Shown piece by piece: positions 6,576-34,271 of a stretch of DNA of 64,000 bases (positions within the stretch are counted from its first letter, which is position 1; the number at the start of each line of letters is the position of its first letter). The notes beneath the pieces are model-generated. The model was not told the DNA's origin, did no database searches, and saw nothing but the letters and a program-made list of their open reading frames with translations. This DNA comes from Heterodontus francisci (Eukaryota), in assembly GCF_036365525.1 (NCBI RefSeq), contig NC_090387.1, positions 88,949,691 to 89,013,690 of the forward strand. Direction: 5' to 3'. A program made the translations under genes and the position numbers.

Positions 6576-6734
6576 CATACAAGTGCCAACTTTTTTTTTA
6601 ATCACGGTGTTAATGTGATCCTCGCTAAACATCATTCTTAAATTATTTTCTACGTGTTTGCTGTTGTTTCGATCACAGTCAACTCTGGTTATCAATTGAA
6701 CGCAAGACAAAACATATTACTATTCTTTCAACAG

Positions 6735-7028
6735 TTCCTCCGACGCCTTTACAGATTTTCTCCAATGAGTCACCGACCTCTTTGATTCTCGTCTGTCAGA
6801 CTGCTGCATTTTCCCCGGAAAGGCTCAACATCACTTGGTATAAAAATGGATCAGTAATTACGAGCGGTACGAAGGAAATCAAAGAGCAGAATACAGAGGG
6901 ACTGTATGAAGTTTCCAGCAAACTCAATGAAACAGGCGCTTTGCAGATTGGAACGAACTATACATGTCAGGTAGAACACATCTGTCTCCAGACAGCAGCC
7001 AGTGTCCATCACGTTATACACATTTCTG
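6735..7028 (+). CDS. Ig C1-set domain exon of a SIRP-like/ITIM-bearing IgSF receptor (internal exon, phase 1-1)
   Basis: Acceptor ttctttcaacag|TT at 6734/6735 and donor TCTG|gtaagt at 7028/7029. Translation (V)PPTPLQIFSNESPTSLILVCQTAAFSPERLNITWYKNG...GLYEVSSKL...TNYTCQVEHICLQTAASVHHVIHIS has the C1-set hallmarks LxC..F.P..I.W.KNG and YxCxVxH. Same frame as ORF 6782..7045. Confidence 0.9.
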
Positions 7029-7924
7029 GTAAGTGGCCTGCTTAATTCCAACTCCTGTTTTAAAGAGAAAACGTTTATCTATAAGTGTTAAGAGTAACTG
7101 AGCACCATCCCCATGGGCTGCGAATGCAATTTTGTGCTTCGTTGATTCATATTGTTCAAATACGAGCCGAACAAATTTCGAGAGGCTTTTCCATTTATAG
7201 CCAAAATGACCTTGGCTCTTCCTTAGCAGGAAGAAATGTCAGTTTTTAGAGGCAGTGCACATCTATATTATTATAATTTTCAGCCGCCTCGATGTTGATT
7301 TGTTTTTCCGTCCCAATAACATAATCAGCACACATCGGAAATGCATCACCCTGTGACGTCCTGGCATCTCAGCTTCAGGAATTCTGGAAATCACTCCGCC
7401 GAGACCACCCACCCCCGTAAAATTTTATGCCCTGCTCCAATAATTTTCGCGGGCGTTTAGGCCGTTGGGGAGGCGTCCATTGAAGTTAAAGGTGGAGAGG
7501 CGAATAGCCCGTGTGAAAATTCTGCTGTTTTGTATTCAGCCGTTGGCCGGATGTTGAAAGAACAGCAAACTGAGATTAATTTTACATTTTTCAGAACCCG
7601 GGTATCGTTCTCCGAGACTGGCAACAGAGGCTTTTGTTAATAAAATATTCTTTATTGTCATAAATGAGGGAGACAGTTCAGTTGCATAGAAACATTTACT
7701 TGAATTCAGGTTAAACATGTCCTAGAATTACAACATTTACATCACAACGATTGGAGAGAGTGTGCACCAGTCGCACCCATGTTTGGACTATTGCATGACG
7801 CTCTGTCATTTTTATTTCGTACATTCAAGTCATTGTTGCACGCAGGCTCAGTTGTGCCCATCTGTATACACCACCTTTCTAAGCGTGTTTGATTGAGGTC
7901 GCAGAAATACATCGTCGGAAGACT

Positions 7925-10686
7925 TTTTTATTATTATTCATTCATGGGATGTGGGCGTCGGTGGCTCGGCCACCATTTATTGCCCATCCCTAATTCCCCT
8001 TGAGAAGGTAATGGTGAGCTGCCTTCTTGAACCGCTGCAGTCGAGGTTGGGCACGTACATCCACAGTGCTGTTTAAAAGAGAGTTCCAGGATTTTCACCA
8101 AGCGGCAGTGAAGGAACGGCCATATAGTTCCAAGTCAGGATGGTGTGTGACTTGGAGGGGAACTTGCAGGTGGTGGTGTTCCCATGCATTTGCTGCCATT
8201 GTCCTTCTAGTTGGTAGAGGTCACAGGTTTGGAAGGTGCTGTCTAAGGAGCCTTGTTGCATTGCTACAGTGCATCTTGTAGTTGGTGCACACTGCTGCCA
8301 CTGTGCATCGGTGGTAAAGGGAGTGAATGTTGTGGATGGGATGCCAATCAAGCGGGCTGCGTTATCCTGGATGGTGTCGAGCTTCTTGAGTATTGTTGGA
8401 GCTGCAGCCATCCAGGCAAGTGGAGAGTATTCCATCACACTCCTAACTTGTGCCTTGTAGATGGTGAACAGTCTTTGGGGAGTCAAGAGGTGAGTTACTA
8501 ACCACCGGATTCTGAGCCTCTGAAATAAAAACAAGAAATACTGTAAATACTCGGCAGGTCTGGCAGAATCTGTGGAGAGAGAAGCAGAGTTAACGTTCCA
8601 GGTCAGTTACCCTTCTTCAGAACTGACCTGAAATTTTAACTCTGCTTCTCTCTCCACAGATGCTCCCAGACCTGCTGAGTATTTCCAGAATTTCTTGCTT
8701 TTATTTCAGATTTTCAGCATCCGCAGTATTTTGCTTTTATTATTCCGAGCCTCTGACCTGCTCTTGCAGCCACGGTATTTATATGGCTACTCCAGTTCAG
8801 TTTCTGGTCAATGGCAGCCCCTGGGATGTTGATAGTGGGGGATTCAGCGATGGTAATGCCATTGAAAGTCAAGAGGAGATGGTTAGATTCTCTCTTGTTG
8901 GAGATGGTCATTGCCTGGCACTTATGTGGCGTGAATGTTATTTGCCACTCATCAGGCCAAGCCTGGATATTTTCCAGGTCTTGCTGCATATCTTCAGTAT
9001 GTGGGAGTCGCGAATATTGCTGAATATTGTGCAATCATCAGCGAACATCCCCAATTCTGACCTATTGATTGAAGAAAGGTCATTAATGAAGTAGCTGAAG
9101 ACGTTTGGGCCTAGAACACTACCCTGAGAAACTCCTGCAATGATGTTCTTGAGCTCAGAAGATTGACCTCCAACAACCACAACCATCTTCCTTTGCCCTA
9201 GGTATGACTCCAACCAGTGGAGAGTTTTCCCCCTGATTCCCATTTACTTCAGTTTTGAGAGGGCTCCTTGATGCCATACTCAGTCAAATTCTGCCTTGAC
9301 GTCAAGGGCAGTCACTCTCACCTCACCTCTTGAGTTCAGCTCTTTTGTCCATGTTTGACCCAAGGCTGTAATGAGGTCAGGAGCTGAGACACCCTGGCGG
9401 AACCCAAACTGAGCATCACTGAGCAGGTTATTGCTAAGCAAGTGCTACTTGATGGCGCTATTGATGACACCTGCCATCACTTTACTGATGATTGAGGGTA
9501 AACTGATGAGGTGGCAATTGACCGAGTTGGACTTGTCCTGCTTTTTGTGTACAGGGCATCCCTGAGACATATTCCACATTGCTGGGTAGATGCCAGTGTT
9601 GTAAGCTGTACGGGAACAGCTTGGCTAGGGGCGCAGCCAGTTCTGGAGCGCATGTCTTCAGTACTATTGCCGTAATATTGTCATGGCCTATTGCATTTGC
9701 AGTATAAAATACCTTCAGTCGTTTCTTGATATCACACGGAGTAAATTGAATTGGCTGAAGTCTGGCGTCTGTGATGCGGGAGACTTCAGGAGGAGGCCGA
9801 GATGGTTCATCAACTCGGCACTTTTGGCTGAAGATTGTTGCAAATGCTTCTCCCTGATTTTTTCACTGATGTGCTGGGCTTTCCCATCATTGAAGATCGG
9901 GATATTTGTGGAGCCACCTCCTCCTGTTAGTTGTTTAATTGTCCACCACCATTCATGGTTGGATGTGGCAGGACTACAGAGCTTAGATCTCATTCATTGA
10001 TAATGAAATCGCCTCGTTCTGTCTGCCGCATCCTGCTTATGCATTATTAGGTTGACACCTTATTTTGAGGTATGCCTGGTGCTCCTCTTGGCATGCCCTC
10101 CTGCACTCTACGTTGAACCAGGGTTGGTCTCCTGGCTTGATGGTAATGGTAGAGTGGGGGACATGCCGGGCCATGAGGTCACAGATTTTCGTTGAGTACA
10201 ATTCTGCTGCTGTTGATGGCCCACAGCGCCTCATGGATGCCCAGTTTTGCATTGCTAGATCTGTTCAAAATCTATCCCATTTAGCACAGTAATAGTGCCA
10301 CACAACACGATGGACGGTATCCTCAATGCGAAGGCGGGACATCGTCTCCACAACGACTGTGCAGTGGTCACTCCTAGCAATTCTGTCATGGACAGATGCA
10401 TCTGCAGCAGGCAGATTGGTGAGGACGAGGTCAAGTATGTTTTTCCCTCACCATCTTCCACAGACCCAGTCTCGCAACTATGTCCTTTAGGAGTCGGCCG
10501 GTAGGGGTGCTACAGATCCACTCTTGGTGAAGGACATTGAAGTCCCTAACCCAGAGTACATTCTGTGCACTTGCCGCCCTGAGTGCTTCCTCCAAGTCAT
10601 GTTCAACATGGTGGAGTACTGATTCGTCAGCTGATTGAACGCAGTAGGTGGTAATCAGCAGGAGGTTTCCTTGCCCATGTTTGACC
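7925..10686 (-). mobile_element. CR1-group LINE of the second (tRNA-headed) family, 5'-truncated, interrupted by a PLE hairpin
   Basis: Frameshifted ORFs GIRGKTLHWLESYL..GVSQGSVLGP..MFADD and TIYKAQVRSVMEYSPLAW. The 3' end ttcatgggatgtgggc...atttattgcccatccctaat is shared with other copies. Confidence 0.9.
8524..8741. mobile_element. Minimal Penelope-type insertion: two inverted terminal repeats forming a hairpin
   Basis: 8524-8610 and 8622-8708 are inverted copies. The insertion is flanked by a 15-bp duplication attctgagcctctga (8509-8523) / attccgagcctctga (8742-8756). Confidence 0.85.
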
Positions 10687-12530
10687 GTGTCCGTGCCGAC
10701 ATTCTGCAAGAGCAGCTCAGATAGTCCTACTCCCCCGCCCTTTCCCCGTGACCCTATATTTTCTTTCTTTTCAGGTTAGTGTCCAATTCCTTTTTGAAAG
10801 CCCTGATTGAATCTGTCTCCACCGTTCTCTGATACAGGTCCTAACCGCATGCTTCAGAGAAAATATTTCCTTATGTAGCCATTGGTTTTTTTGCCAATCA
10901 CCTTAAACCGGTGTCCTCTGGCTCTCGACCCTTCCGTCAATGGGAATAACATCTCTCTATATACCCTGTCTCGACCCCTCATGATTGTGAGCCCTTCAAT
11001 CATATCTTCCCTCAAACTTCTCTTCTCGAAGGAGAAGTACCCCCAGATTCTCCAACCTCTTCACGTAACTGATGTCCCGCACACCTGACTATTCTCGTAA
11101 ATCTTATCTGCACCCTCTCAAAAACCTTTAGATCCTTTCTAGAGTGTCGTGTCTAGAATTGGACACAATAGTCCAGTGTGTCGGAACCAGAGTTTTATAA
11201 AGGTGCATCAAAACCTCTTTATTTGATACTATACGCCTGTATTTATAAAGCCCAGTATGGTGTATGCCTTCTTATAAAGAAATTCCCAACCTACCCTTCC
11301 ATCTTCAAAGGTTTGTGCACATTTACCCGAGATCTATCAGTTCCTGCATCCAGCTTTACAATTGTGCTCTTTATTTCATATTGTCTTTTCTCGTCCTTAC
11401 CTACTATGATGTATCACTTCACATTTATCTGCATAAAATTTCGTCTGCACCTGCGCATCCATTCCACCAGCCTGCTCTGTCCTCTTGAAGTCTGTCACTA
11501 TCCTCCTCACAGTTCACAATGCTTCCAAGATTTATGTCATCTGCAGATTGTGAAATTATGCCCAACACATCCAGGTTCAGGTCATTAATAAACATCAAGA
11601 AAAGCAGTGGTCTATTACTGACTCATGGGAAACCCACTGGCCTTCCTTCCTCCAGTCTAAAAAATGACGGTTCACCACGGTTCTGTCTCCTGTCAGTCAG
11701 CCAACTTTGTATCCCTACTGCAACTTACCCTTTTACTCCATGGCTTCACTTTTGCTGGTAAGCCTGTTACATGCCACTTCATAAAAACAGTTTTTGCGAG
11801 GCCATATACACATCATCCACATTACCCTCAACAAACTGTTGCCTCATCAAAAAACTCAATTAAGTTAGTTGAACAAAGACTTGCCAAAGACATGCCAAAG
11901 ACTTGCAGGTTCGATAGGTTCATTGGCCATTATAAATTGCCCCTAGTATAGGTAGGTGGTAGGGAAATATATAGAGACAGGTGGGGATGTGATAGGAATA
12001 TGGGATTAGTGTAGGATTAGTATAAATGGGTGGTTGATGGTCGGCACAGACTCGGTGGGCCGAAGGGCCTGTTTCAGTGCTGTATCTCTAAACTAAACTA
12101 AAACATAATTTCTCTTTAACACATTCATGCTGACGTTCCCTAATTAATCAGCACACGTCCAAGAGGCTATTAAATTTTGTCCCGGATTTTACTCTATGAA
12201 GGATTTCCGACCGCCCATGTTAAACTGACTGGCCTGCAGTTGCTAAGCTTATCTTTACTTGTTTTCATGCTGATAAAGAGCGTAAAATCTGCACTTCGAC
12301 AGTCCTCGAGAACTACTCCAGTATCAAAAAAAGATTGGAAGATTATGGCCAGTGCCACCGCATGCCTCTTACTTCAGTATCCTCAGATCTCGCCCATCTA
12401 GTCCTGATGGCTTATCAATTTTAAGTGCAGCCAGCCTTTCTAATCTCCTCTTTATCATTTTTAGCTCCTCCAACATCTGAACTACCGCCTCTTTCACTGT
12501 GACTTCAGCCACATCTTTTTCCTTGCCAAT
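10687..12530 (-). mobile_element. Decayed CR1/L3 LINE with a V-SINE inserted
   Basis: Reverse-strand matches to CR1 motifs, e.g. ctcatcaaaaaactcaattaagttagt (NLIEFFDE) and gttaaactgactggcctg (RPVSLT). Confidence 0.7.
11890..12103 (+). mobile_element. HE1-like V-SINE, 5'-truncated
   Basis: Near-identical to the 3' half of the SINE at 19994-20345; ends in (CTAAA)n. Confidence 0.85.
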
Positions 12531-13623
12531 GTCAGTCGTTTAACTGTTCACTGGCTTTAGCCATTTGCATGTATCTTTATAATTCAATTAAGTTTGGACT
12601 TGAATTTTAAAGGCTTGCCACTGCATGCTAAACTAAAACTGGTTGGGTTTCTGTGGAATGGTTGGGACAAAGCGAATAGCGTTGAGATGGGCCATGTATC
12701 ACCTTCACTGGGATTCTTTTGATTTCCTGCCGAAGTTACAGCCGCAGCTTGAGACAGCGGCCATAAATATCCATGGCTATAATTTCGTTTTTCATCTGCA
12801 TTTTTCCTGCAGCAACTAAAAAATCCAGTATAAATGATAAGAAATTCTACAACATAGAAAATACAAAGTATCACATTTTAAGACACACCACAATTAATGG
12901 TCGTTTCGGTCATTTTTTCTTCATAAATGTGCTCGAAAAACATCTCTGACCCAGCAATAAAAGGGTGGGTGAGCATGAATAATTGGAAAACGGATAGGAA
13001 AGGACTCATTGTTGGCAAGAGCGTCCCTGTAGCCCCACACAAAGTGCAGCCTGGTGTAATTCTTACCCCTTGCAAAAGTTTGGACTTGCATTATTCCACT
13101 CATTGCCTCCGACATCCACGGGTAGAGAATGCATTCAAAGAAGGCAGCAAAATAGGAGTCAAAGAGAAAGAAAACGAATTTAGGGGCACAGAGCAAAAGG
13201 GGAATAGAAAAAAGACAAAAGTAGTCGAGTGGAGACAGAAATAGAAATGTTAATACCATGAAAACTGATAAAGATCAGGGAGATTCCATGACCTAGAATT
13301 ACATGATCTGATTTCTCTGGGGTTGCTGCCAATCTCCCACCAAAATTCGGGGAGGTTATTTGGGGTGGATCAACACCAGCCCAGCATCATTTTGAAGTAT
13401 ATGATATCGCTCAGGAGATGGTATTGGTCTCCAGCTGAAGGTATTGCACGACACACAGCCGACCGGCAGAATTGCAGAGCTTTATGTTGACTATCTCATG
13501 ACTAAAGTTACATTTTCTTTGAATTCAGAATGTGTAAATTCACAACGCCAGGCTTGTAACAGTAAAATAACCTTTTTTTCAGATCAGCAAGATCCTTAAG
13601 TGGAAGTTTTGTTTATTTTGCAG

Positions 13624-13737
13624 GTACAGATCGTGGTTTTACTCTTGTGTTTATGTATCTATGCATTGCTGTTGGGCTTTTAATTCTAATACTGATGATC
13701 ATCATTGTGAAATCGGGTAAATTACTTGGATTCAAAG
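13624..13737 (+). CDS. Transmembrane exon of the same receptor (phase 1-1)
   Basis: Acceptor ttttgtttattttgcag|GT and donor AAAG|gtaaat. Translation (G)TDRGFTLVFMYLCIAVGLLILILMIIIVKSGKLLGFK: ~24 uncharged hydrophobic residues followed by basic residues. Phase matches the C1 exon. Not in the ORF track. Confidence 0.85.
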
Positions 13738-13947
13738 GTAAATATTTTCGATTTCTCTAATGTATTCAAGAATTGGTACGTTTCAAGATAATACTTTGGC
13801 TATAATAAGATGGAGAAATTAATAATTGCACCAATGGATGAAGCAGATTTGTTTAGAGATTAGAACAATCAACGACTCTTCAACAAAACAGAGAATTTAT
13901 GCACCTTTCCGATCAGACTTCTGGAAAAGGAGATAAAAGAACCTCAA

Positions 13948-14944
13948 ATAAAAACAAGAAATGCTGGAACCACTCAGCAGGTCTGGCAGCATCTGTGGAA
14001 AGAGAAGCAGAGTTAACGTTTCGGGTTAGTGACCCTTCATTTGTGCTCCTGTAATTCTGGCCTCTTGCATATCCCCAATATTAATTACTCTCTCCGCCTC
14101 TCCACCTCTCTTTCCTCCTTTAGGACCCTCCTTAAAACTTACCTCTTTAACAAAGCTTTTGGAAACCTGTCCTAGTATCTCCTTATGGCTCAGTGTCAAA
14201 TATTATTGATAACAATCCTGTGAAGCTTCTTGGGACATTTTACTATATTAAGAGATAAAAAGCAAGTTGTTGTTATTGCTGAATATAGGATCGTCACCAT
14301 TTCACAGAACTGTAATCCACCTGGGATGTTCACAGATATTTAAGCAAGTTCAAACGATCTGTAGTTGAGTTAAAGAACAACATGGCCATGTGAGCACAAT
14401 GGCGGAACTGGATATGCAACACTACAGACAGATGAAAGTGATAGAGATACCAATCAGGTTAATTGTTGGCCTCATCATCACACTGTTCGAGCAGAACACA
14501 TACTCAGTAGGGACTGAGCCATCACAGTGAACTCCAAATGACCTTAATGACCAAAGCAGAAAAACACAATCACAATAACCTGCATTTATATAGCACCTTT
14601 AATGTAGTGAAACTTCCCAGAGCACTTCACAGGAGTGTTATCAGGCAACAACTGGCACTGAGCCAACGAAGGAGATATTTGGATGGATGACTAGGGGCTT
14701 GGTCAAAGAGGCAGGTTTTAAGGAGCATCCTCATGGAGGGAGAGAGGTCAAGAGCAGAAGAGATTTAGGAAGGCAATTCCAGAGTTTAGGGCCGAAAATA
14801 TACAAAAAAAAGTTCCGATGAAGGGTCACTGACCTGAAACGTTAACTCTGCTTCTCTTTCCACAGATGCTGCCAGACCTGCTGAGTGGTTCCAGCATTTC
14901 TTGTTTTTATTTCAGATTTCCAGCATCCGCAGTATTTTGCTTTT
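13948..14944. mobile_element. Composite Penelope-type insertion: inverted terminal repeats around ~770 bp of non-PLE cargo
   Basis: Perfect 15-bp TSD ataaaagaacctcaa at 13933-13947 and 14945-14959. A ~93-bp inverted repeat (13948-14040 vs ~14818-14911) shows two mismatches by eye. Confidence 0.85.
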
Positions 14945-15889
14945 ATAAAAGAACCTCAATGTTTGACTACAACTCACCTTGGACAGGTGGGCTATAAAAT
15001 TTCGTTTGCAGACAGTCAGCAGAAAACCAATTGAAATTCCAAAGAAAAAGAATAACTGACTCGCATTGATTGTTTATGCTAGATGATGTTAGTTTTCTGG
15101 CGATGCAACTGTTTTTTTTAGCAAAGTTAAAGCTGGACACTCGATGAACCCTAACGATATGACAGAGCAATATGTGAAGCATTTCTGCGGGGATTTTCCC
15201 CATCTCGCATCGTAACTTGAGCTGCTACTTAAATCTACCTGATGCATCGCAAGATTTGTGCAACTACTGTAAATATGGGTTGCGAACCATCAGACACAGA
15301 AATCAAAGTAAATGTAAAGTTGCTGTAAAAGAAATATTAAAATCAAGATTCTTCAGTCATTAGTAAGTTTCACAGAGCTTGTTCCACTTTCTTGGTTTAA
15401 CTTTACCAGGACATCGATAAAACCGTGCGAGAAATAATGTTCGGTGTGATATATAATTATAGAGGCTCGGATGCTAAGTGGGATACGATTAGTTTCATAT
15501 GTAGTTTGGTGGCAGAATGATGGAAACCCCAGAAACACAGAAGTAGAAATTCTCTTGGGTTCTTGACCCCCTGCTCTAGGTGGAAACCTCAGACAAAGAG
15601 CGTGACTAGTAGTTTTCCCAGTTTTTCACTACTGAAGATTCATCTATACGATGAACATTATGAACATTTATGGTTGGAATTTTAGCAGGGATTGCCCAGT
15701 TCTGCTGCCATGTTAAAGGGAAGATCGACAGGAGCGCACTTAAAAAGGACTATCCCACTTCTGTGAAGCCAAAGGGACATAATTCAGCATAAAGCTAAAG
15801 AAGGCGATGCTTGTAGTGCTACCTGGTCATCATTGCACGTTTAGAGGAGAGTGCACAAAGGGAATAGAGTCATGGAGAATACGTTAATT

Positions 15890-16520
15890 ATATGAATTTT
15901 CCAGATGTTGGTTTGGATGGCTGAAGACATTGTTGTCAATGATGGTTTGAAGGGAAGGGATTCATAAGATGCAAATAAATGGAGGGAAATAGTGTTCTCA
16001 GAGGGCAGTAAGACCGGAGATGGTCACAGAGAAAGGATAGACCAGACCACTGTTGAATTTTAACACAAGGATGCGAATTTAATATCTGAGGTAATGAGAA
16101 ACCAAGTGCCAATGCAGGTCAATGAACAGGCGGTGGGGCGTGAGAGTGACATGATACGGCTTTGGTTGTGGGCAACACCGCTTTGGTTAAGTTTCAGCGG
16201 CCGGAAGGATTAGTAAATAATCAGGCATCGATTGTAATAGTGAATACGGAAGTATTGGGAAATAATCAGGCATGGATTATAATAGTAAAGCCGGAAAGTT
16301 AAAAATGCATAGATCAATTTTTCAGCAGAAGCTGAGCTGAGGGAGATGAAACTACAGATGTGGAAATGGATAATCTTTCTGCTGGATAGGATATGTAGTC
16401 TGAAGCCCAGTTGGACGTCAACAAGACTCCAAACGCTGGAAACAGTCTGCTTCAAGCTGAAACAGTGGGCAGACATAAGTATGAGATCGGCTCCAGTGCC
16501 CGTAGTGGAGGCGAAATATG
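15890..16520 (-). mobile_element. Ancient L2-type LINE fragment
   Basis: ORF 16210..16476 contains LSSASAEKLIYAFLTFRLYYYN, a decayed L2 motif (AEKLIHAFVTSRLDYCN). Confidence 0.55.
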
Positions 16521-16794
16521 ATGGTTTAGCTCCTGTAATACGCTACCAATGTTCATCCTGTGCCTGCCGTGCACTCCTTTCAGGATGAGTAACTGCAAGT
16601 GCATGAATTGTTAGGTGTTTAGATCAGATAATATACCACATAGTGTCACATCGTCCAATTTATCTTTGTATAAAGTAATGATGCAGAGAAAATAAATCTC
16701 CATGAAGCAGTCCAAAACAGCGAAGATTCTACTTTATTGTTTAAAGTTATACGAATCCTGTACCGAACCAGTGATCATTGTGTCATAAGGTTCA

Positions 16795-19015: not shown

Positions 19016-19316
19016 TTAGGATCGTTTTAACATAAAAGTTTAATGGAGAGTCAAGTGGGATACAATAAGACATGTTTTGTTTCTTGTTAAATATTAGATA
19101 TTCAATAAAGTGAGGACACTAACAAATTTTCATTCAGACTAAGTGTAACTTTTGACTGTACGATAATATTAAAATAGAAATTGATAAAAATGCAATTTAG
19201 AAACAGTTAAATCAGTATTAATTCTAAGAAAGTGGGACACTGGTAAAATATGGTTAAATTTGAAACCGACAACAATCTCAATATTTTCAATAATATAATG
19301 AAATTCGTGCGCAAAG

Positions 19317-19432
19317 ATTTGCAAGGTACCGAAGATACAACAGAAGAACAGCTCAGCTACGCAGCTTTGAATTTTGCAGAACCTAGGAAGCATTCAAATC
19401 GCAAGCAGATAAAAAAGAACGTGCACACACAG
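19317..19432 (+). CDS. Cytoplasmic exon 1 with ITIM LSYAAL (phase 1-0)
   Basis: Translation (D)LQGTEDTTEEQLSYAALNFAEPRKHSNRKQIKKNVHTQ; donor CAG|gtacca at 19432/19433. The acceptor is weak (gcaaag|AT); an in-phase alternative AAG acceptor lies at 19325/19326. Confidence 0.75.
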
Positions 19433-20345: not shown

Positions 20346-21460
20346 AACATGTTACAAAGGGCGAGCCTTCGGTACATCGTGCATCTGCCGGTTCTTCGGA
20401 AGAGCTTTCCGATTAGTCCCACTCCCCAGCTATTTCCACATAGCACTGCAACGTTTTCCTCTTTACGTAGTTGTCTAATTCCTTTATGAAATTTGTCATT
20501 AAATCCGGTTCCTCTAACTGTATTGCAGCCCATAACAGCTCGCTGAATAAACTCTCATGTCGTCTCTCGTTCTTTATTACAACTGCTTTAAATCAGCATC
20601 TTCTGGTTACCGACTGTTCTGCTACTGGAATCGTGTTTTCTTTATTTAGTCTATCAAAACCCTTCATGATTTTGAATACCTCTATCAAATCTCATCCTTT
20701 TCTGATCTAATGCGAACACCAGCACCCTGTGCAGTCCCTACGCAAAACTGAAGCCGTTCACCCCTAGTACCATGCCAGTAAATCTCCTCTGTACCCTCTC
20801 GAAGGTCATGACATCCTTTTAAAAGAGTGGCACCCAAAATTGGCCGTAATACCGCAGCCAAGGACAAAGCAGTGTTTTATAAACGTTCAGCATAACTTTC
20901 TTCCTTTTGTATTCTATGTCGCTATTTATAAAGACATTTATAACAGACTTCTTTGTTTCTCCTACCACCGTCAAATGCTTAGGTACGTACTGTACCACTT
21001 TTGTTTGTTTTGAGAGCCCTTTTCAGCCATTTAGTTTGTATTGCCTGTTCTATTTCTTCCAACCAGGGAGAATCACTTATGAGGAAAGGTCCACGAGCTA
21101 AAATATTAACTCATTTTTTTTCTAACCGCAAATGCTGCAGACTATTGAGTATTTCCAGAATTTTCTGTCTCGATTTACGAACTATCACTTCACACTACCA
21201 TACTGGATAACACGTATCTAAACATTTTCCCAGTCTATATCCGATATCCTGAAGCCTGGTAGTAGCCTCTCCCCTGTGCACTTGCAATCTGTAAACTTTA
21301 AAATTATGCCCAGGGTACCCAAATACAGGATATTAACATATATCAACAACGGCAGACACAACACGGACACCCTGGGGACACCACTGCATACTACCCTCCT
21401 GAAAAATAAGTCTGAAAAACAACCGTTTACCACTATTCTCAGACCCTTCACCAATTTCTG
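20346..21460 (-). mobile_element. Old CR1 fragments (with a short PLE-terminus remnant near 21098-21175)
   Basis: ORF 21218..21454 LRIVVNGCFSD..CSGVPRVSVL; CR1 3' UTR-like sequence at 20350-20520. Confidence 0.6.
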
Positions 21461-24400: not shown

Positions 24401-25810
24401 CGTAGTTGTTGCAGTCACCGCAGTCACCTTTGTTTTTATAGAGGGTGATGATATTGGCATCGCGCATGTCCTGAGGTACTGCTCCCTCGTCCTAGCACAG
24501 GCAAAGCAGTTCATGTAGTGCTGAGAGTATAGCAGGCTTGGCACTCTTGATTATTTCAGGGGTAATGCTGTCCTTCCCAGGGGCTTTTCCGCTGGCTGGA
24601 GAATCAATGGCATTACTGAGTTCCGATTTTGTTGGCTGTAGGTCCAGCTCATCCATGACTGGTAGAGGCTGGGCTGCATTGCGGGCAGTCTCAGTGACAA
24701 CATTTTCCCTGGAGTACAGTTCTAGGTAGTGCTCAACTCAGCGGTCCATTTGCTTGCATTGGTCAGTGATTATGTCCCCTGATTTAGATTTGAGGGGGGG
24801 CTATCTTCTTGATGGTTGGCCCAAAAGCTCTCTTAATGCCATCATACATTCCTCTGATGTTTCCAGTGTCGGAGGTCAGCTGAATATGACTGCATAGGTG
24901 TTGCCAGTAGTCATTTGCGCAGCGCCTGGCTGTTCTTTGTGCAGCGCTTCTGCCTGCTTTAAGTGCTACGGATGTTAACTCACTGGAGGCTTTCTTGTAG
25001 TTCAACAGTGCAATGTGCTTAGCGGCTATGACAGGTTCCAGCTCTTCAATATGAGATTGAAACCAGTCTGCATTCCTCTTCACACGTTTGCCGTAAGTGG
25101 TCAAAGCTGACTCATAGATTGCTTCTCTGATGTGGGCCCACTTGGTCTCAGCATCCCCTGTGGAAGTGTTTTGAAGGGCTGTTAGAAGTGAATTTAAAAA
25201 TTTTCGGTGTCCTTCTCCATAGTGTACAAATTAAAAGTAATCATTCCAAACCTCGCCTACGTCCTCCGGCTCCACACACAGATTGACATTGTTCCCTGGT
25301 TATCCTCTTACCCTTAATATACTAATAAAATTCCTTGTGGTTTTCTTATATCTTGCGCACCAGAGTTTTTTCATGCCACCTCTTCGCTCTCGTAATCACT
25401 TTTTTAAGTACCAACCACCTTTCACAGCACCACCCCACCCACCCCTACTTTCTATTGTCGCCTCGGGCCTCCGCCGATTTCAGCGCTCTGAATCTGCCAT
25501 AAGCCTCCTTTTTTACCATATCCAATCCTCGATATCCCTTGACATCCAGAGTTCCCTGAACTTGGTGGTCCTACCCTTCACCTTTACGGGAACAGGTTGG
25601 CCCTGAACTCTCACTATTTCCTTTTTCGATGACTCCCACTGGTCTGATGCAGACGTTCCTACAAGTAGCTCTTCCCAGTACATTTTGGTCAGATCCTGTT
25701 TTATCATATTGAAATCGGCCTTCCCCCAATTCAGTACCTTTATTTCTGGTCCATCTTTGTCCTTTTCCATAACTACCTTAAATTTTGCAGAGTTATGGTC
25801 ACTATCCCCG
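21461..25810 (-). mobile_element. CR1/L3 LINE split by an RTE insertion (halves 21461-23012 and 25205-25810)
   Basis: ORFs 22275..22670 (GVPQGSVLGP, KFADD), 22806..23045 (KSPGPDEMYPRLL) and 25513..25770 (KVLNWGKADFN..., upstream ORF2 region). Confidence 0.9.
23013..25204 (-). mobile_element. RTE-clade (BovB-like) LINE, 5'-truncated, with TSD
   Basis: ORFs with ELLFADDAAL, PEAQCGF..RSTIDM and RRLRWLGHVSR. TSD ccttctccatagt at 23000-23012 and 25211-25223 (extends to ~19 bp allowing CpG decay). Confidence 0.92.
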
Positions 25811-27454
25811 ATTTTGTATGCCCGCTGCCTTTAATCCAAAGGGATTCAATTTTCTAAGCAGGGCTATTATGTGTCAATTTATCAAACGACGATTGGAAGT
25901 TTATTTGCACATCAACGGCATCTACTCTCTTCCGCACTTTATCCAATAACTCAATCAAGTTTGCCAAATACGGTTTGTCTTTAACAAATCGATATTTGCC
26001 TTCATTTATTAACCTGACTAATTTTGCCCCGGTTTAGTTTAGTTTAGTTTAGTTTAGAGAGTTTACTGCATCCAAAACTTTCCCCACCATGGATGCTAAG
26101 TTGATTGGCCTGAGACTGCGGCACTACCATTTTGAACAGGGTGTAACATTTACAATTGTCCAGATCTCTGGAATCACACCCTATCTAAGATGGATTGGAA
26201 GATTGCGGCCATCCTACTTCCCGCAGCATTATCGAATGCATCTCCTCCATTCGGTGTGCTTTATCTATTTTGAGTGCAGCCAATGTTTTAACTACCGCCT
26301 GGTTAGCTGTTTAAATGCTATCCACCTCGTACAGTACTGTGACATCGGTAGTACGCTGATATTTAGTGGAGAGATGCTAACCTTGCCCCATCCCTCTCCA
26401 AGATAATATCTCATTTTTGCTCCCTAATCGGCCCCACCCTTACCCTGATAACAAGTTTACTAACTATATGTTCATAAATGTTGTAAGTTACGGGTTATTC
26501 GATTACCGTATACTCTGCTTTCTTGTAGAACTTTGTTTTTCTTTCAGTTCAACCCTGTTGTATTCAATTCTGTTCACTGCTGAATTACCAACACGACATT
26601 TATAAATAGTTCTGCTGAAAAATCATCCAGTGAAACGTTAACTCTGTTTCTGCCTCTGCAAATATTCCATGACCTGCTGAGTATTTTCAGTATTTTCTGT
26701 TTTTATTTATTATTAGCTTCATTTATCTCTTTTGCTTTAACCTTTTGTTGTGAATTTTGGTTTTGGATGCCCCTCCTTTCATCACCGTTTTGTTAACATG
26801 TCAATTTTTGATCCGAATCCAGATGGCTCAGAACGTTGAATCATAGAATAGTATAGAAGGACAACATTCCTGCCTTGACGAATGCATAGGCTCTTTTGAA
26901 GAACAACCCACTCCGTTGCACTACCCTGCTCTTGCTCCATATCCTTACAAGCTTTTCCCCTCAAATATGTATTTAATAGCTTTGTGACGGCTCCTATTGA
27001 ATCTATATCCATCAAGATATCATGCATTACGTTCGAAATCCTAACCAGTCGTTGTGTAAACGTTCGCCTCAGTGACAACCAGCTCAAAGGTGAAGTTCTG
27101 TCTCTTATTATTCCTTCTTATATCTATGACCTCCATCAAACATCATCATCCAATCCTGCCAACATTTTGCTAATGATTCAAGTCATTTGCTATTTATTCG
27201 AGTTAATATTTATCAACTCCTTCCGTTTTTACACTGTCTGTACACATAACCTTTCCTCTCAGCGAAATAATGGAATCGCGGCATCTTTCCTCCTCCATAC
27301 TCTTTGACAAGCTGATGAAAATATGGAGGTAGATGTTATACCTTATCATTAGGCTTAATCTGGAAGTGTGAACTGACAGATCATTATAAATATCCATTCG
27401 ATTTCTATTACAAATAAACTTATAAAATGAAAATCATGCATACTTTATTATTAT

Positions 27455-29845
27455 AGGATCATAGAAATTAGAAGCAGAAGTAGAACATTCGGCCTATCCA
27501 GCCTACTCCGCCATTCATGGCTGATCATCTACCTCAATGTCATTTTTCCCTACTGTCCCCATATCCCTTCATGTCGTTAATATTCAGAAATCTATCGATT
27601 CCTGTCTTGCACATGCTCAATGATTGAGTATCCACAGCCCTCTTGCGTAGAGAATTCCATTGATTCACCACCCACTGTGTCAAGAAATTCCTCCTCATCT
27701 CAGACTTAAATGGCCTGCCCCTTATTTTGAGACTGTGTCTCCTGGTTCTAGAATCATCAGCCAGAGAACGCAATCTGTCCACATTTACCCTGTCACACCC
27801 TGTAAGTATATTCTAAGTTTCAATGAGATCATCTATCATTCTTCAAAACTCTAGAGAATACAGGCCCCGCTTCTGCTATCACACAAGAGAATCCCGCCAT
27901 CCCAGGGATTGGTCTGGTGAACGTCCACTGCACTCCCTCTATGTCAAGTATATCCTTCCTTAGATAAGGAGACCAAAACTGTACACAATACTCCAGCTGC
28001 GGTCTCACCAATGCATTATACAATTGCAGCAAGACATATTTACTCCTGTATTCAAATCCCCTTGTAATGAAGGCCAACATACAATTTGTCTTCCTAATTG
28101 CTTTCTGCACCTGCATACTAGCTTTCAGTGACTCATGAACAAGGACACTCAGGTCGCTTTGGACATCAACACTTTCCAAGCTCTCACCATTTGTGAAATA
28201 CACTGTCTTTCTGTTTTCTGCCAAAGTGGCTCACCTCACACTTACTCACATTATATTCTATCTGCAATGCTCTTGCCCATCCACATAACCTGTCCAAATC
28301 CCCCTGAAGCCTCCTTGCATCCTCCTCACGACTTACATTCCCACCTAGTTTTTTGTCATCAGCAAATTTGGAAATATTACATTTGGTTTCAAAACACCCA
28401 AACTATTTATATCGATTCTGAACAGCTGTGAACCAAGCACTGATCCTTGCGGTTTCCCACTAGGAGCAGCCTGCCATCCTGAGAATGCTTTCTGTCCGTT
28501 AACCAATTTTCAATCCAAGGCAGTATATTACCCCCAATCCCATGTGCTCCAATTTTGATAACTAACCTGCTTTGTGGGACGTTATCAGAAGCCTTCTGAA
28601 AATCCAAATACACCACATCCACAGGTTCTTCTTTATCTATGCTGCAAGTAACATCCTCAAAAACTGCAACAGGTTTGTCGAACGTGAATTCCCTTTCATA
28701 AATCCATGTTGACTCTGCCAAATCATATCATTATTTTGCCAGTGCCCAGTTATCTCATCCTTTATAACAGATTCTAACATTTTCCCTACTACTGACGTTA
28801 AACTAACAGGTCTGTAGTTCTCCGTTTCCTTCCTCACTCCCTCCTTAAATAGTGGGGTTGCATTTGCTACTTTCCAGTCTGTAGGAACCCTTCTAGAATC
28901 TATATAATTTTGAAAGTTAACCACCAATGCATCCACTATCTCTATAGCCACCTTCTTCAATACGCTGTGATCTAGCTCATCTAGTCCCGGGTATTTATCA
29001 ACTTTCACTCCAATTATTTGTTTTCTAGTACTACCTCTTTATCAATACGAATTTCTTCCAGTTTCTCATTTTTACAAGTCCCTTGGTCCCCTAGTATTTC
29101 TGAGAGATTTTCTGTGTCTTCCTCCATGAAGACAAACGTAAATTAATTGTTTAGTGTCGCCGCCATTTCTGCATTCTCCACCACATCTCTCCTGTCTCCA
29201 CCTGCAATGGACACGCATGCGTCTTGCTAATCTTTTCCTTTCCACATACCTAAAGAAGCTTTTACAGTCTGTCTTTATGCTTCTAGCTAACTTGCATTCA
29301 TAATCCGTTTTCCCTTTCTTTATTAGTTTCTTGTTGGATTCTGAATTGCTTTCATTTCTCCGGCTTACCACATTTTCTGGTGACCATATAAGTCACTTCC
29401 TTTGATCTAATGCAGTATTTAACTTCGTCTGTTAGCCGCGGCTGATTCACCTTTCCTGTTGACTTTTTGTGCATTAGACGAATGTATATTGGTTGTAAAC
29501 GGTGTAATACATCTTTAAATACTATCCACTGCCTGTCTATCGGCAAATATTATCATGTATTTTCCAAATCCACCATAGCCAACTTGCCCCTCTAACTTCA
29601 TAGTTTCATTTGTTCAGATTTAATACCCTAGTTTCAGAATGAAATGTATCTCTTTCAAACTTGATGTAAAAGTCTGTCATATTGTGGTCACTATTTGCTA
29701 ATGGCTCCTTTACAGCAAGATTATTAACTAGCCCTTTCTCATTACATAATGCTAAATCTAAAATAGCCCGATTCCCAGTTGGTTCTTCATCATACAGCTC
29801 CAGAAACCCATCTCATACACACCCCAGGAATTCATCCGCCAAAAC
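27455..29845 (-). mobile_element. CR1/L3 LINE (decayed)
   Basis: ORFs 27829..28224 (LVRPQLEYCVQFWSPYLRKD), 28637..29008 (NYRPVSLTSVVGK) and 29072..29371. Confidence 0.9.
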
Positions 29846-29847
29846 AT

Positions 29848-30375
29848 TGGCCCGGATTTCACGTTGGGTGGACCAGAACCAGATACCGAATGAAAAGTCG
29901 GTGGCGAACCACCTTGCCTGAGGATCCGACCCACATTTTATGGGTCCCGGGGCTTTAATTGTGCCGAGGCAGGACGTCCACCTGCTTGAGGGAGGACGTC
30001 CCATCTCGTTGAGCTGCCGATCCAGTGGTCATTGCCCGGGAATACAGGTCGATTTTGGTTGCCATGCCGAGGGTAATGGGTCTGCCCCCGGCGAGGCAAG
30101 TGTGGTAAGTTGCGCGGAAAGGGGTATTTTGGGTGCTGGGCGTGGTTGAGGTAGCGGGGCTGGCCCTCCATCGGGCACCCTATGCCCGATGAGTTAAGTG
30201 GCCACTTAAGGGCCTTGATTGGCCTGGGGCTGGTGGGCCGTTTTTCTCTCCCACCCTACCTAAAAGGGGACAGAGGTGGGACCGTGTCCGAAAAGCCTTC
30301 CAGAGCCTCCCGCTCCATTTTACGCCAACCACACCCTTCTCACCGCACCGCCACCCCCACCCAGCATCTGGCTCG
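29848..30375. mobile_element. GC-rich non-autonomous DNA transposon remnant (Harbinger/MITE-like)
   Basis: GC-rich non-coding block whose left end ggcccggattt resembles the reverse complement of the Harbinger terminus aaattctggccc at 52985-52996. The right end is degraded. Confidence 0.4.
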
Positions 30376-30481
30376 TTACAGCTAATTCATTGTTAACTGT
30401 CACTGACTTTAAGTTTTCAAGTAAGGTTTAAAGTAAGAAAACAAGAATAAATTTTAGTTTCATAACAACTCGCCAACTTTC

Positions 30482-33365
30482 GTTATTCATTCGAAGTGTG
30501 TGCATAATTGACAAGGCCAGCATTTATTTTCCATCACTACTTGCACTTGAGAAGTTGTTGCGCAGTTGCGTTCTTGAACTGTGCAGTGCATGTGGTGTGG
30601 GAACACCCAGAGTGTTGTTAGGAAGTAACTTCCATGATTTTGACCCAGCGACAATTAAAGGAATGGTGATAAGTTCCAACTCAGGATGGTGAGTGACCTG
30701 CAGGAAAACCTGCAGGGATTAGTGTTCCCATGTGTCATCTACCCTTCTTCTTGGAGGTGGTAGAAGTCACAGTTTTTGGAAGGTGTCGTCAAAGGGGAGT
30801 TGGCGAGTTCCTGAAATGCATCTTGTAGATGGTACACACTGCTGCCACTATCCACTGGTCATGGAGGTAGTGAATTTTGACTGTGGTAGATGGGGTGTTG
30901 ATCAAGTGGACTGCTTTATCCTGGATGGTGCTGAGTTTCTTGAGAGTTGTTGGAGCCGCACTCATCCAGAAGTGAAGAGTATTTATTCATACCTCTAATT
31001 TGTGGTTTGCAGATACAGGACTGGCTTTGGGAAGTCAGGAGGTAAGTTATTCTACTCGGAATCCCCAGTCTCTGACTTGCTCATGTAGCCACAATAATTA
31101 TATGGCTGATCCAGTTAGGCATCAGCTGAATGGTGACCCCCTAGGATTTTGATGATGGGGGAATCGGCGATGGCAATGCTGTTGAATATCAAGGAGAGAT
31201 GGTCAGATTGTTCTTTGGCAGAGATGATCATTGCCTGGCACTTCTGTGGCAGAATTATATTTCCAAATATCAGCCCAGGCCTAAATTTTTACATATATTT
31301 CTGTATGTGGACACAGACTGCTTCAGCATCTGAGGGGTTGTGAATGTTACGAAACACTGTGCAATTGTTAGCGGACATTTCCACTCCTGACCATATGTTG
31401 GACCGATGAAGTGGCTGAAGATATTTGAGCCTAGAACACTATTCTGAGGAACTCCTGCAGCGATGTCCTGGGGCTGAGATAATTGGCCGCCACCAACACA
31501 ACGATCTTCCTTTTCTCAAGATGCCAAAAACCAATGGAAATATTTCCTCCTGATTCCCACTGACGTCAATTTTGTTAACGCCTTTTGGTGCCAGATGAAG
31601 GCAAATGCTGCCTTGATCTCAAGGGCAGCCACTCTCACCTCAGCTCTGGATTCCAACTCTTTTGTTCAAGTTTCGACCAAGGCTGGAATGCGATCTGTAG
31701 CCGAGTAACCCGGGCAGAACCCAAACTGAGCATCAGTGAGCAGGTTCTTGCTGAGTGAGTCCGACTTGATAACACTGTCACTGACACCTTCCATCACTTT
31801 GCTGTCGACTGAGAGTCGATTGATGGGGCAGTAATTGGCCGAATTGGATTTGCCCTCCTTGTTGTGGACAAGACATAACTGCCCAATTTTCCATATTGTT
31901 GGGTAGATGCCAGTGCGGTAGCTGCACTGGAACAACTTGGCTAAGGGCGCGACTACTTCTGGAGTACAAGTCCTCAGTACTGCAGCGGCGTTGTTTTCAG
32001 AGCACATAGCCTTTAATGCATCCAGCAACTTCAGCCATTTATTGATATCACGTGGTGTTAAGTGAATTGGCTGAAAGCGGGCATCTGTGACGTTGGATAC
32101 CAATGTGGATCCTCCACTTGGCACTTCCAATTGAAGATTAGATTAGATTAGATTAGAGATACAGCACTGAAACAGGCCCTTCGGCCCACCGAGTCTGTGC
32201 CGAACATCAACCACCCATTTATACTAATCCTACACTAATCCCATATTCCTACCAAACATCCCCACCTGTCCCTATATTTCCCTACCACCTACCTATGATT
32301 GCAAATGCTTCAACCTTGTCATTTGCACTGACGTGCTACCATTGACGACAGGGATTGATGTGGTGCCTCCTTCTCTTGTTAGGTGTTTAATGGCCACCAC
32401 CATCCACAGCTGGATGCAAAAGGACTGCAGAGCTTTGACCTGATCTGTGATTGTTGGATCACTTTGCTCTGTCAATAGCATCTGCATCTACTGTTAAGCA
32501 TGCAGGTAGTCCTGTGTTGTAGCTTCAAAAGGTTGCATCTGATTTTAGATATGCCTGGTGTTGCTCTGGCATGATCTCCTACACTTCCTATTGAACCAGG
32601 GCTAGTCCCCTGGCTGGATGATAATGGTCGATTGAGGGATATGCCAAGCCATGAGGTTATAGATTGTGATTGAATACAATTCCACTGTTTCTGAAGGCCT
32701 GCAGTGCCATGAGTCAATGTTGAGGGCTCCCACAGGGCCACTCCCTCCCGAGTGTACACCACTATGCCACCACTCTGGTAGGTCTGTCCTGACGATGGAA
32801 CAGGACATAACCAGGGATGGTGACGAAGGAGTTTGGGACATTAGCCGTAAGGTATGATTCAGGCAGTATAACTGTGGCAGGTGGTTGCCTTATTAGTCTG
32901 GGAAAACTCTCGTAGTTTTTGCACAAGTCCCCAGAAGTTAATGAGGAGAAATTTGTAAGGTCGACGCGGCAGGTTGTGAAATGGTCATTTCGGGTCTCGA
33001 GATCGTTGCCGGGTGATCTCTCGGTTTTGTTCTTATTTAACTTTTCTGCAGTGGTTTGATACAACTGAGAGGCTTGTTAATCATTTCAGAGGGCAGTGAA
33101 GAGTCAATCACTTTGTTTTGAGTCTGGATTCACACGGAGACCAGACTGGGTCTCGACGCCAGATTTCCGTTCCTGAACGGCATTAATGGACTAGATGAAT
33201 TTGCAACAATCCTGTAATTGCACGACTAATTTTTTTTAAATCCCAGATTTATTAATTTATTGAATTTAAATTTATCCAGCTGCCGTGACGTGGTTTGAAC
33301 TCATGTCCCCAGACCATTAGCTGAGACTTCTATATTGCTTCAGTACTGCTATGCTACCGTCTCCC
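30482..33365 (-). mobile_element. 5'-complete copy of the tRNA-headed CR1-group LINE (internally deleted, decayed)
   Basis: 3' tail at ~30482-30560, RT region (ORF 31666..32130), APE N-terminus (ORF 32762..33064 VILPESYLT..IPGYVLFHRQDR), and head GGGAGACGGTAGCATAG...GAGTTCAAACC ending at 33365. Confidence 0.85.
32136..32296 (-). mobile_element. HE1-like V-SINE 3' fragment inserted in the LINE
   Basis: Reverse complement of the SINE tail at 20195-20335, with a (TCTAA)n end. Confidence 0.85.
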
Positions 33366-33887
33366 TACTACTGAACCAATACTTCGCCTTGAATTCCCCT
33401 TTCGATTCAATTTATATAAAATTGATATAAGATAATTAATCAACAGGATAACGTTTTTACAGTGGGACTTACATTTTACCTGTGCTCTGCATCAGATAAA
33501 AATTTTAACATATTCATGTTTAGACTGGCATCGAAAAAACGGGACTGTCTTCTGAACAGTCAGACTGTGCTGCCAGCTAAGAAGGGTAAAAGCGAGAGCG
33601 CGCATTGTCGGGGCCAACCGAGCGGAATGTCTACCTACCAGATTTAAAGGCCATTTCCGCTTAATTAACTCCAATTTCAACTAGTTACAATCAGCCCCAA
33701 TAAAGGGAAAAAAAACTTCCAATCTTTGCAAGCATGCCAGTTCGATGTGTCAAGTGCAGGTTCACCAAACCGACAATTAAAACTGTCTCATCAGATAAGA
33801 AAGCATTACTGCCCATTATAGGCTACTTGATTTAGAAATATGCTGACTGGTAAAGATAGAATATAACACTATATCTGAACATCACAG

Positions 33888-34055
33888 ATTCCCCAAATGG
33901 AAACCGAAGAAAGACTGACCTACTGTGCTCTAGATTTCGTCGGTCAGAAGAAAGTTCCCGGACCTACGCGGCACGAAGAGACCTCAGTGTATGCCCACGT
34001 GCAGTTCAAGAAACAGAACAGCATGCTCGGAACTCAAGGCCATGTAAGAAAATAA
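33888..34055 (+). CDS. Terminal cytoplasmic exon with ITIMs LTYCAL and SVYAHV, ending in stop TAA
   Basis: Acceptor atcacag|ATT (phase 0, matching the previous donor). Translation IPQMETEERLTYCALDFVGQKKVPGPTRHEETSVYAHVQFKKQNSMLGTQGHVRK*; TAA at 34053-34055. Not in the ORF track. Confidence 0.85.
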   Translation: MPQMETEERLTYCALDFVGQKKVPGPTRHEETSVYAHVQFKKQNSMLGTQGHVRK

Positions 34056-34265: not shown

Positions 34266-34271
34266 AATAAA
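34266..34271 (+). terminator. Candidate polyadenylation signal AATAAA for the receptor gene (alternative at 34469-34474)
   Basis: AATAAA hexamers about 210 and 415 nt after the stop codon in AT-rich unique sequence. Confidence 0.4.

What the first reader, a model, noticed from the sequence alone, without database searches (positions are those of the whole stretch)
6735..34055. C1-set Ig inhibitory receptor with a SIRPalpha-like tail, largely missed by the ORF track
Seen: four exons spread over 27 kb of repeats splice in phase (1-1, 1-1, 1-0, 0-stop) into C1 domain - uncharged TM - cytoplasmic tail EQLSYAALNF...NVHTQ|IPQMETEERLTYCALDFV...TSVYAHVQFKK. Established: C1-set domains are typical of jawed-vertebrate immune molecules (Ig, TCR, MHC, tapasin, SIRP, B7-H6), and mammalian SIRPalpha has four tyrosine motifs (ITYADL, TEYASI, LTYADL, SEYASV) in a similar layout that recruit SHP-1/2. 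Inference: this is a chondrichthyan SIRP-like or V-C1 inhibitory receptor, relevant to the origin of SIRP/CD47-type checkpoints and of non-rearranging antigen-receptor relatives. Orthology cannot be assigned without the upstream V exon.
Basis: partly seen in the sequence, partly recalled or inferred. Interest (0 to 1): 0.7.

Follow-up and report, generated by a model that had tools for sequence, protein, structure and literature searches.

The report
Shark brake receptor, disulfide-free tip
This is a real, spliced shark gene for a cell-surface protein that likely acts as an immune brake, one of about 45 clustered antibody-like receptor genes, and it stands out because its outer domain has lost both cysteines that normally staple that fold and is left out of the database gene model.

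Summary
Confirmed. The four exons exist (6735-7028, 13624-13737, 19317-19432, 33888-34055), and one 781-nt contig from a likely RNA run joins them with no mismatch in the pieces laid. The gene is already in RefSeq as 'PTPNS1-like' (XP_067905014.1). Its leader and VJ-type V exon lie just upstream of the window. It belongs to a family of about 45 V(J)-C1 genes on one chromosome, with inhibitory tails or short tails plus a basic TM residue, also present in other sharks, rays and chimaera. The scan noted this family before (17 findings, at least 9 genomes, and this genome). It works like SIRPalpha, but membership is not shown: one C1 rather than two, SIRP V does not pick it reciprocally, and SIRP-neighbour markers lie on another chromosome. 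New here: (1) its V alone among 43 lacks both core cysteines yet keeps frame and splice sites, and the RefSeq model skips it; (2) tail motif 2 is lost (three tyrosine motifs); (3) its chromosome appears paralogous to the SIRP-marker chromosome, so the family may be a genome-duplication sister of SIRP. Ligand, signalling and V inclusion are untested.

The parts
1..6734 (+). Downstream part of the intron before C1. Two exons of the gene lie just upstream of the window: leader (L013:8495-8561; G000:C17:88948185-88948251) and V(J) exon (L013:8769-9089; G000:C17:88948459-88948779), the latter open, with a J-like GCGTELVV end, both core Cys replaced (Gly, Ser), and skipped in the RefSeq model
   Evidence: V: Pfam V-set E 4e-5, below the cut-off; AlphaFold pLDDT 89.9 from a paralogue alignment
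6735..7028 (+). C1-set exon, phase 1-1
   Evidence: Pfam C1-set; RNA-type contig over 6878-7027; boundaries
13624..13737 (+). Transmembrane exon, uncharged helix (FTLVFMYLCIAVGLLILILMIIIV), phase 1-1
   Evidence: donor at 13737 read from the contig's loose end
19317..19432 (+). Tail exon 1, phase 1-0; ITIM LSYAAL at 19352-19369; family motif 2 lost (NVHTQ for TVYAQ); weak AAG acceptor
   Evidence: a neighbouring paralogue has TAG at the homologous acceptor
33888..34055 (+). Tail exon 2 to stop; ITIM LTYCAL at 33915-33932 and SVYAHV at 33984-34001, tyrosines 23 residues apart
34056..34287 (+). Likely 3' UTR with AATAAA at 34266-34271
   Evidence: sequence; end inferred from the contig length, assuming it is colinear

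Best explanation
The gene is spliced and encodes a membrane protein with one C1 domain, an uncharged anchor and three tyrosine motifs, and it likely acts as an inhibitory immune receptor within a shark-ray-chimaera family of paired V(J)-C1 receptors. Shown: six exons join in frame (359 aa with V, 252 aa without; the latter equals the RefSeq model); about 45 paralogues lie on the same chromosome; some relatives have short tails and Arg or Lys in the TM. Inferred from ITIM receptor biology: on clustering, Src-family kinases would phosphorylate the motifs, and the LTYCAL/SVYAHV pair 23 residues apart would dock the tandem SH2 domains of SHP-1/SHP-2 and damp signals from activating siblings, which would use FcR-gamma, CD3-zeta or DAP12-type adaptors. 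This copy is a specialised member: its V domain likely folds without the core disulfide when included, and a V-less C1-only form is likely also made, so it probably no longer shares the ligand of its siblings. It works like SIRPalpha but is probably not its positional orthologue.
For: Splicing. Family: 49 of 57 C1 hits and 45 of 45 V hits on C17, mostly at 76.1-77.1 and 88.4-90.3 Mb; 46 database relatives, from sharks, rays and chimaera where the organism is visible. Paired signature: 8 of 51 proteins with a basic TM residue and a short or tyrosine-poor tail, 2 labelled from this species (residue placed by eye). Tail spacing 22-23/13-14/23 in four relatives against 24/17/26 in bat SIRPalpha. 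V under constraint: no indel against paralogues, normal splice sites, Trp, DxGxY and GxGT kept; neutral simulation leaves the frame and splice sites intact in 19%, 9%, 4% and 1.5% of 4000 runs at 20, 30, 40 and 50% protein change, indels not modelled.
Against: No ligand, cell type, phosphorylation or phosphatase binding was tested. RNA support is one contig from one sample whose RNA status is a guess, and it starts inside C1, so V inclusion or skipping is not seen directly; skipping rests on the RefSeq model, whose evidence I could not see. The V is the most divergent of 43 (35% to its nearest paralogue; 13 of 19 conserved columns kept), motif 2 is lost and the tail-1 acceptor is weak, all of which also fit a decaying copy. 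No orthologue with a cysteine-free V was found (0 of 112 database V domains; blank). The AlphaFold model borrows its fold from cysteine-bearing paralogues.
Confidence: 0.62

Rival explanations
1. The family is the true cartilaginous-fish SIRP (moved to another chromosome) and this gene is part of a SIRP/CD47-type self checkpoint.
For: Family profile matches bat SIRPalpha over C1-TM-tail in one stretch (E 5.8e-47) and motif by motif; SIRPalpha is 2nd of the PDB hits to the profile; lungfish SIRP-like C1 best hit a C17 exon, weakly (E 5e-4); no SIRP-like V was found on C16; a family+SIRP clade is not rejected for C1 (p-AU 0.36) or for V without the B7-H6-like rows (0.42).
Against: V-C1, not V-C1-C1; V is shorter (Trp to Asp of DxG 38 residues against 47 in bat SIRPalpha); SIRP V picks C29 VJ exons first and none on C17 (0 of 53; only 150 of 559 candidates scored); SEP and syntaphilin markers are on C16 and C5; p-AU 0.034 against the clade with all 42 V rows. 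ITIM plus TEYxxI-type pairs also occur in Siglecs and other families (recalled).
Confidence: 0.13
2. This copy is decaying: the V exon has been dropped from the message and is drifting, and the V-less product is a remnant with little function.
For: Both core cysteine codons are one base away from Cys; longest distance to relatives; RefSeq model skips V; motif 2 lost; weak acceptor; a LINE with a 585-aa open RT frame sits in the V-C1 intron; several cluster members are broken.
Against: All six exons are open and in phase; the transcript is spliced and appears to end after a poly(A) signal; losing exactly the disulfide pair while keeping Trp, DxGxY and GxGT fits compensation better than random decay; long neutral drift rarely leaves the frame open, though recent short drift does (19%).
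Confidence: 0.17
3. It is a PRARP- or UrIg-type relic of the antigen-receptor precursor, or a B7-H6-like ligand rather than a receptor.
For: Unsplit VJ exon plus C1 is the layout PMC10751288 gives for precursor-like genes; UrIg2 is 3rd of the PDB hits to the family profile; RefSeq labels some relatives NCR3LG1-like or tapasin-like; B7-H6-like V rows sit next to the family in one tree (95/70, long branches).
Against: The chromosome carries CBFB and malonyl-CoA decarboxylase, markers of human 16q (recalled), not an MHC paralogue; UrIg2 has three constant domains (PDB 9dmx title); ITIM tails and activating siblings point to receptors. No PRARP sequence was available to test.
Confidence: 0.08

Closest known systems
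SIRP family (SIRPalpha/beta/gamma; PMC2785349 and PMC3716694, passages read)
   Same: Unsplit VJ-type V, C1-set domain with FSP and CxVxH, uncharged TM with ITIM tail in some members and basic TM in others; family tail has four aligned tyrosine motifs with similar spacing.
   Different: One C1; shorter V; about 45 genes; different chromosome from SIRP-neighbour markers; activating siblings mostly carry Arg near the outer TM edge, not a mid-TM Lys as in the bat SIRPbeta1-like P0184; this copy has three motifs and a cysteine-free V core; CD47 binding untested.
RefSeq-modelled chondrichthyan V-C1 genes (labels PTPNS1-like, tapasin-like, NCR3LG1-like, CD276 homolog; e.g. XP_067853494.1, XP_067853517.1)
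   Same: Same family: C1 45-55% identical, same domain plan and tail cassettes; C1 tree groups them at 96/88.
   Different: All other V domains examined keep the disulfide (one frameshifted copy aside); most inhibitory members keep TVYAQ at motif 2.
UrIg/UrIg2 and PRARP (PMC10751288 passages; PMC12227049 term search only; Fu 2019 and Ohta 2019 not held, recalled)
   Same: Non-rearranging VJ exon followed by C1.
   Different: UrIg is MHC-linked and UrIg2 has three constant domains; this family is a large paired cluster on a chromosome with 16q-type markers. PRARP relation untested.
NITR of ray-finned fish (bioRxiv 10.1101/2021.06.11.448072, passages read)
   Same: Clustered non-rearranging V-J receptors (inhibitory and activating forms recalled).
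   Different: Second domain is I-type, not C1; holostean NITR clusters are flanked by runx1, donson and olfactory receptors, none of which I saw in the one flank scanned.

Membership tests
SIRP | N-terminal V-set domain with J-like GxGT end, in one exon | tested here: met
   L013:8769-9089, GCGTELVV, though both core cysteines are missing
SIRP | Two C1-set domains after V | tested here: not met
   One C1 exon between V and TM; HMM scan of the window and neighbours found no other
SIRP | Four-tyrosine inhibitory tail (alpha type) | tested here: inconclusive
   Met by the family (23/14/23 spacing), three motifs in this gene; motif type is not unique to SIRP (recalled)
SIRP | Reciprocal best match with bony-vertebrate SIRP | tested here: not met
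   Forward match good; back search with bat V gave 0 of 53 hits on C17, best on C29; lungfish V likewise, its C1 weakly on C17
SIRP | Conserved neighbourhood (NSFL1C, SNPH; human 20p13 recalled) | tested here: not met
   SEP and syntaphilin families on C16 and C5 only
SIRP | One clade with SIRP in domain trees | tested here: inconclusive
   p-AU 0.034 (42 V rows), 0.42 (40 rows, B7-H6-like rows dropped), 0.36 and 0.06 for C1; only two SIRP proteins sampled
SIRP | Binds CD47 | not testable with these tools
   Pfam CD47 search was blank and uninformative
Chondrichthyan paired V(J)-C1 cluster | L-V(J)-C1-TM-tail plan, C1 in the family clade, place in the C17 cluster | tested here: met
Chondrichthyan paired V(J)-C1 cluster | V with Cys23-Cys104 disulfide | tested here: not met
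   Gly and Ser; 42 of 42 other V keep the first Cys, 41 of 42 the second
NITR | V followed by an I-type domain | tested here: not met
   Second domain is C1-set
UrIg / PRARP | Linkage to the MHC or its paralogues; orthology | tested here: inconclusive
   C17 carries CBFB and MCD; MHC markers and PRARP sequences were not searched
ITIM receptors | Phosphotyrosine-dependent SHP-1/2 recruitment | not testable with these tools
   Motifs match the consensus; needs a pull-down

The most novel reading that the evidence does not exclude
The shark V(J)-C1 family is the whole-genome-duplication sister of SIRP: one pre-duplication VJ-C1-ITIM receptor left a copy on the chromosome that became SIRP in bony vertebrates (C16 type) and a copy on the paralogous chromosome (C17 type) that expanded to about 45 paired receptors in cartilaginous fish. 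This gene would be a derived member that switches between a disulfide-free V form and a V-less, C1-only brake.
Probability: 0.25. Interest if true: 0.72.

Novelty: new variant of a known kind. Interest (0 to 1): 0.47.

Why it matters
PMC2785349 suggests that SIRP is related to a V-C1 precursor of antigen receptors and notes that no SIRP gene was known from organisms predating adaptive immunity. A 45-gene paired V(J)-C1 family in sharks, rays and chimaera on a chromosome paralogous to the SIRP-marker chromosome gives a testable candidate for that ancestry and for shark NK or myeloid self-recognition. A cysteine-free or skipped ligand-binding domain in a spliced brake receptor is a natural test of how paired receptors shed a ligand, for example under pathogen pressure. 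The family itself is not new to databases or to this scan, which limits the surprise.

Tried and rejected
Homologue search with the V exon found nothing (weak evidence). The run search listed no holder on record as RNA; X2 and X3 did not cover tail-1, no evidence either way. Laying 20 kb at once was swamped by repeats. The first TM donor (13716) was rejected by the contig. A possible extra exon at 15.3-16.1 kb was set aside as unproven: part of it is intron sequence shared with a paralogue, with no protein match. The CD47 Pfam search was blank and uninformative. Foldseek of the V model gives generic V-set hits led by VNARs and cannot assign a family. MCD is on C17 but at 24.5 Mb, so it does not bound the cluster. 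The AU rejection of family+SIRP did not survive dropping two long rows. Protein Atlas gave no answer. No complex was folded. Paper searches that found no description of the family. Ohta 2019, Fu 2019 and Flajnik 2023 were not held, and no supplements were opened (shark genome-paper supplements may mention these genes), so absence from print is not shown.
Full report
Observation. The exons are C1 6735-7028, TM 13624-13737, tail-1 19317-19432 and tail-2 33888-34055, with AG/GT ends and phases 1-1, 1-1, 1-0, 0-stop. A 781-nt contig of run X1 (RNA by guess; three runs listed, one sample) lies on 6878-7027 at record 1-150 and on 19312-19432 at record 261-381, with loose ends that read the end of the TM exon and the start of tail-2. 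The gap in the record equals the 114-nt TM exon, and the remaining 400 nt would end 16 nt past an AATAAA. X2 and X3 did not cover tail-1. The C1 scores on Pfam C1-set (E 4e-13) and has the FSP, the 13-residue Cys-Trp spacing and the CxVxH that PMC2785349 (passages read) lists for C1-set domains.

The rest of the gene. The window lies at G000:C17:88949691-89013690. A paralogue's V found a weak match just upstream: a 321-nt phase 1-1 exon at L013:8769-9089 with an open frame and a J-like end, 207 nt after a leader exon at L013:8495-8561 and 7645 nt before C1. All six exons join to 359 aa. Without V they give 252 aa, identical to RefSeq XP_067905014.1, labelled 'tyrosine-protein phosphatase non-receptor type substrate 1-like [Heterodontus francisci]'. 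So the gene is annotated, but its model skips V. A search with the V exon found no protein (weak evidence). The RNA-type contig starts inside C1, so I did not see either 5' form directly.

The odd V. Both cysteines of the Ig disulfide are replaced, by Gly (GGC) and Ser (AGT). Of the 42 other V domains over 85 aa that I extracted from this genome, 42 keep the first and 41 the second, the exception being frameshifted. None of 112 database V domains that cover both columns lacks either. This V is the most divergent (35% to its nearest paralogue; 13 of 19 conserved columns kept), yet it has no indel in the 20-row alignment, keeps Trp, DxGxY and GxGT, and has ordinary splice sites. In a neutral-drift simulation from a paralogue exon, frame and splice sites survived in 19%, 9%, 4% and 1.5% of 4000 runs at 20-50% protein change, indels not modelled. 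Long decay is thus unlikely; recent decay is possible. AlphaFold gives a V fold at pLDDT 89.9, but from an alignment of cysteine-bearing paralogues. A new Cys sits in the G strand (GCGT for GNGT), the same word as in CD79b, where it forms an interchain bond (recalled). Earlier scan notes report disulfide-free TCR V segments in sharks (not checked here), so such loss may recur in shark Ig-family genes.

The family. The C1 exon has 57 matches in the genome, 49 on C17 including the best 44. A paralogue V has 45 matches, all on C17. They cluster at 76.1-77.1 and 88.4-90.3 Mb, with outliers at 71.0, 90.8 and 92.5 Mb. Database relatives (46 hits) come from sharks, rays and chimaera where the organism is shown, under mixed labels. 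Of 51 proteins examined, many have uncharged TMs with repeated xxYAxL ... TxYAxx cassettes, and 8 have a short or tyrosine-poor tail with Arg or Lys at the outer end of the TM (P0011, P0012, P0019, P0020, P0023, P0025, P0039, P0050, read by eye). That is the signature of a paired receptor family. This gene has lost motif 2 (His for Tyr) and the fifth motif of some relatives, leaving LSYAAL, LTYCAL and SVYAHV.

Is it SIRP? For: the family profile hits a bat SIRPalpha-like protein over C1-TM-tail at E 5.8e-47 (I printed 19 and named 10 of the 150 rows, and many long multi-Ig proteins rank higher), SIRPalpha is second among PDB hits, and the tails align motif by motif with spacing 22-23/13-14/23 against 24/17/26. 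Against: one C1; a shorter V; the bat V gave 53 hits, none on C17 and the best on C29 (150 of 559 candidates scored); a lungfish SIRP-like V did the same, though its C1 weakly preferred C17. SEP-domain and syntaphilin genes, neighbours of human SIRP at 20p13 (recalled), lie on C16 and C5. C17 carries CBFB, malonyl-CoA decarboxylase and, beside the cluster, genes I recall as OSGIN1 and SLC38A8 (84 of 439 candidate frames scanned), all human 16q markers (recalled). Trees keep the family as one group (V 88/81, or 97/90 without two long rows; C1 96/88) but do not fix its sister: p-AU for family+SIRP is 0.034, 0.42, 0.36 and 0.06 in four tests. I built these on 29 family V rows, 27 family C1 rows and two SIRP proteins. 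It works like SIRPalpha; membership is not shown.

A middle reading. The three NHR2-domain genes fall on C5, C16 and C17, the set that also holds the SEP and syntaphilin pairs (C5, C16). Human 8q, 20 and 16q form a known set of paralogous regions (recalled; no paper checked). The family therefore appears to sit on a chromosome paralogous to the SIRP-marker one, and no SIRP-like V turned up on C16. A genome-duplication sister of SIRP would explain the shared tail and layout without shared neighbours. This rests on one three-way marker family and unresolved trees, so I give it about 25%. A word search of earlier notes for this idea was blank.

How it likely works. Shown: a spliced type I membrane protein gene with an uncharged TM and three ITIM-type motifs. 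Inferred: phosphorylation by Src-family kinases, SHP-1/2 binding at the pair 23 residues apart, and damping of signals from basic-TM siblings. Two forms are likely: a disulfide-free V form with changed specificity, and a V-less C1-only form that would act without the family's ligand or in cis. Rivals are a displaced true SIRP (0.13), a decaying copy (0.17) and a PRARP, UrIg or B7-H6 type gene (0.08).

What is known. Ten paper searches found no description of the family in their listings. I read passages of PMC10751288, PMC11599192, PMC13262535, PMC2785349, PMC3716694 and bioRxiv 10.1101/2021.06.11.448072, and ran a term search of PMC12227049 (no SIRP, PRARP or ITIM). Ohta 2019, Fu 2019 and Flajnik 2023 were not held and may cover VJC1 genes like these; no supplements were read. 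The scan has noted the family before (17 findings in at least 9 genomes; several times in this genome); those notes agree with my reading but are not independent support. Verdict: real gene, new variant of a known kind, interest 0.47.

Noticed in passing
window 4735-6492 (+): LINE-type reverse transcriptase frame of 585 aa (Pfam RVT_1 E 2e-37) ending about 240 nt before the C1 acceptor, inside the V-C1 intron; might bear on V skipping.
   Followed up: partly
L015:3861-5695 (G000:C17 about 88.924 Mb) against window 33301-35127: A 1.8-kb block holding the last exon is 73-83% identical to a copy about 60 kb upstream, while the TM-to-tail intron resembles L028 (about 69%) and the V and C1 do not group with those neighbours: the gene looks like a mosaic made by unequal crossover.
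   Followed up: partly
L101:3633-4736 (-), L102:4323-5108 (-), L093:5270-5584 (-): Flank of the 88.4-Mb cluster: a pyridine-nucleotide oxidoreductase gene and an amino-acid transporter exon, recalled as OSGIN1 and SLC38A8, neighbours at human 16q23.
   Followed up: partly
G000:C5:70.5 Mb, C16:88.6 Mb, C17:1.9 Mb: The three NHR2-domain (MTG family) hits fall on C5, C16 and C17, and the SEP and syntaphilin pairs on C5 and C16: the three chromosomes look paralogous. One three-way family only.
   Followed up: partly
L073-L076, L090 (G000:C29, 14.8-15.4 and 31.0-32.0 Mb): Unsplit VJ exons of NKp30-like look (label recalled) are the best matches to SIRP V domains in this genome.
   Followed up: partly
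P0081, P0113 (database proteins): Models of family members that lack C1 (V-TM-tail), so Ig-exon skipping may recur in the family.
   Followed up: no
L025:1938-3314 (G000:C17 88.8216-88.8230 Mb): Tandem duplication of a two-exon tail cassette in a neighbouring paralogue (identical hits 1018 nt apart).
   Followed up: no
window 40931-43793 (-): Broken frames of a possible LTR retroelement (weak SCAN match, E 8e-4, below the cut-off); a further LINE RT fragment at 45197-46234.
   Followed up: partly
family V domains (alignment A4): The V domains are short between the C and F strands (Trp to Asp of DxG 38 residues), and the model's best structural matches are VNARs.
   Followed up: partly
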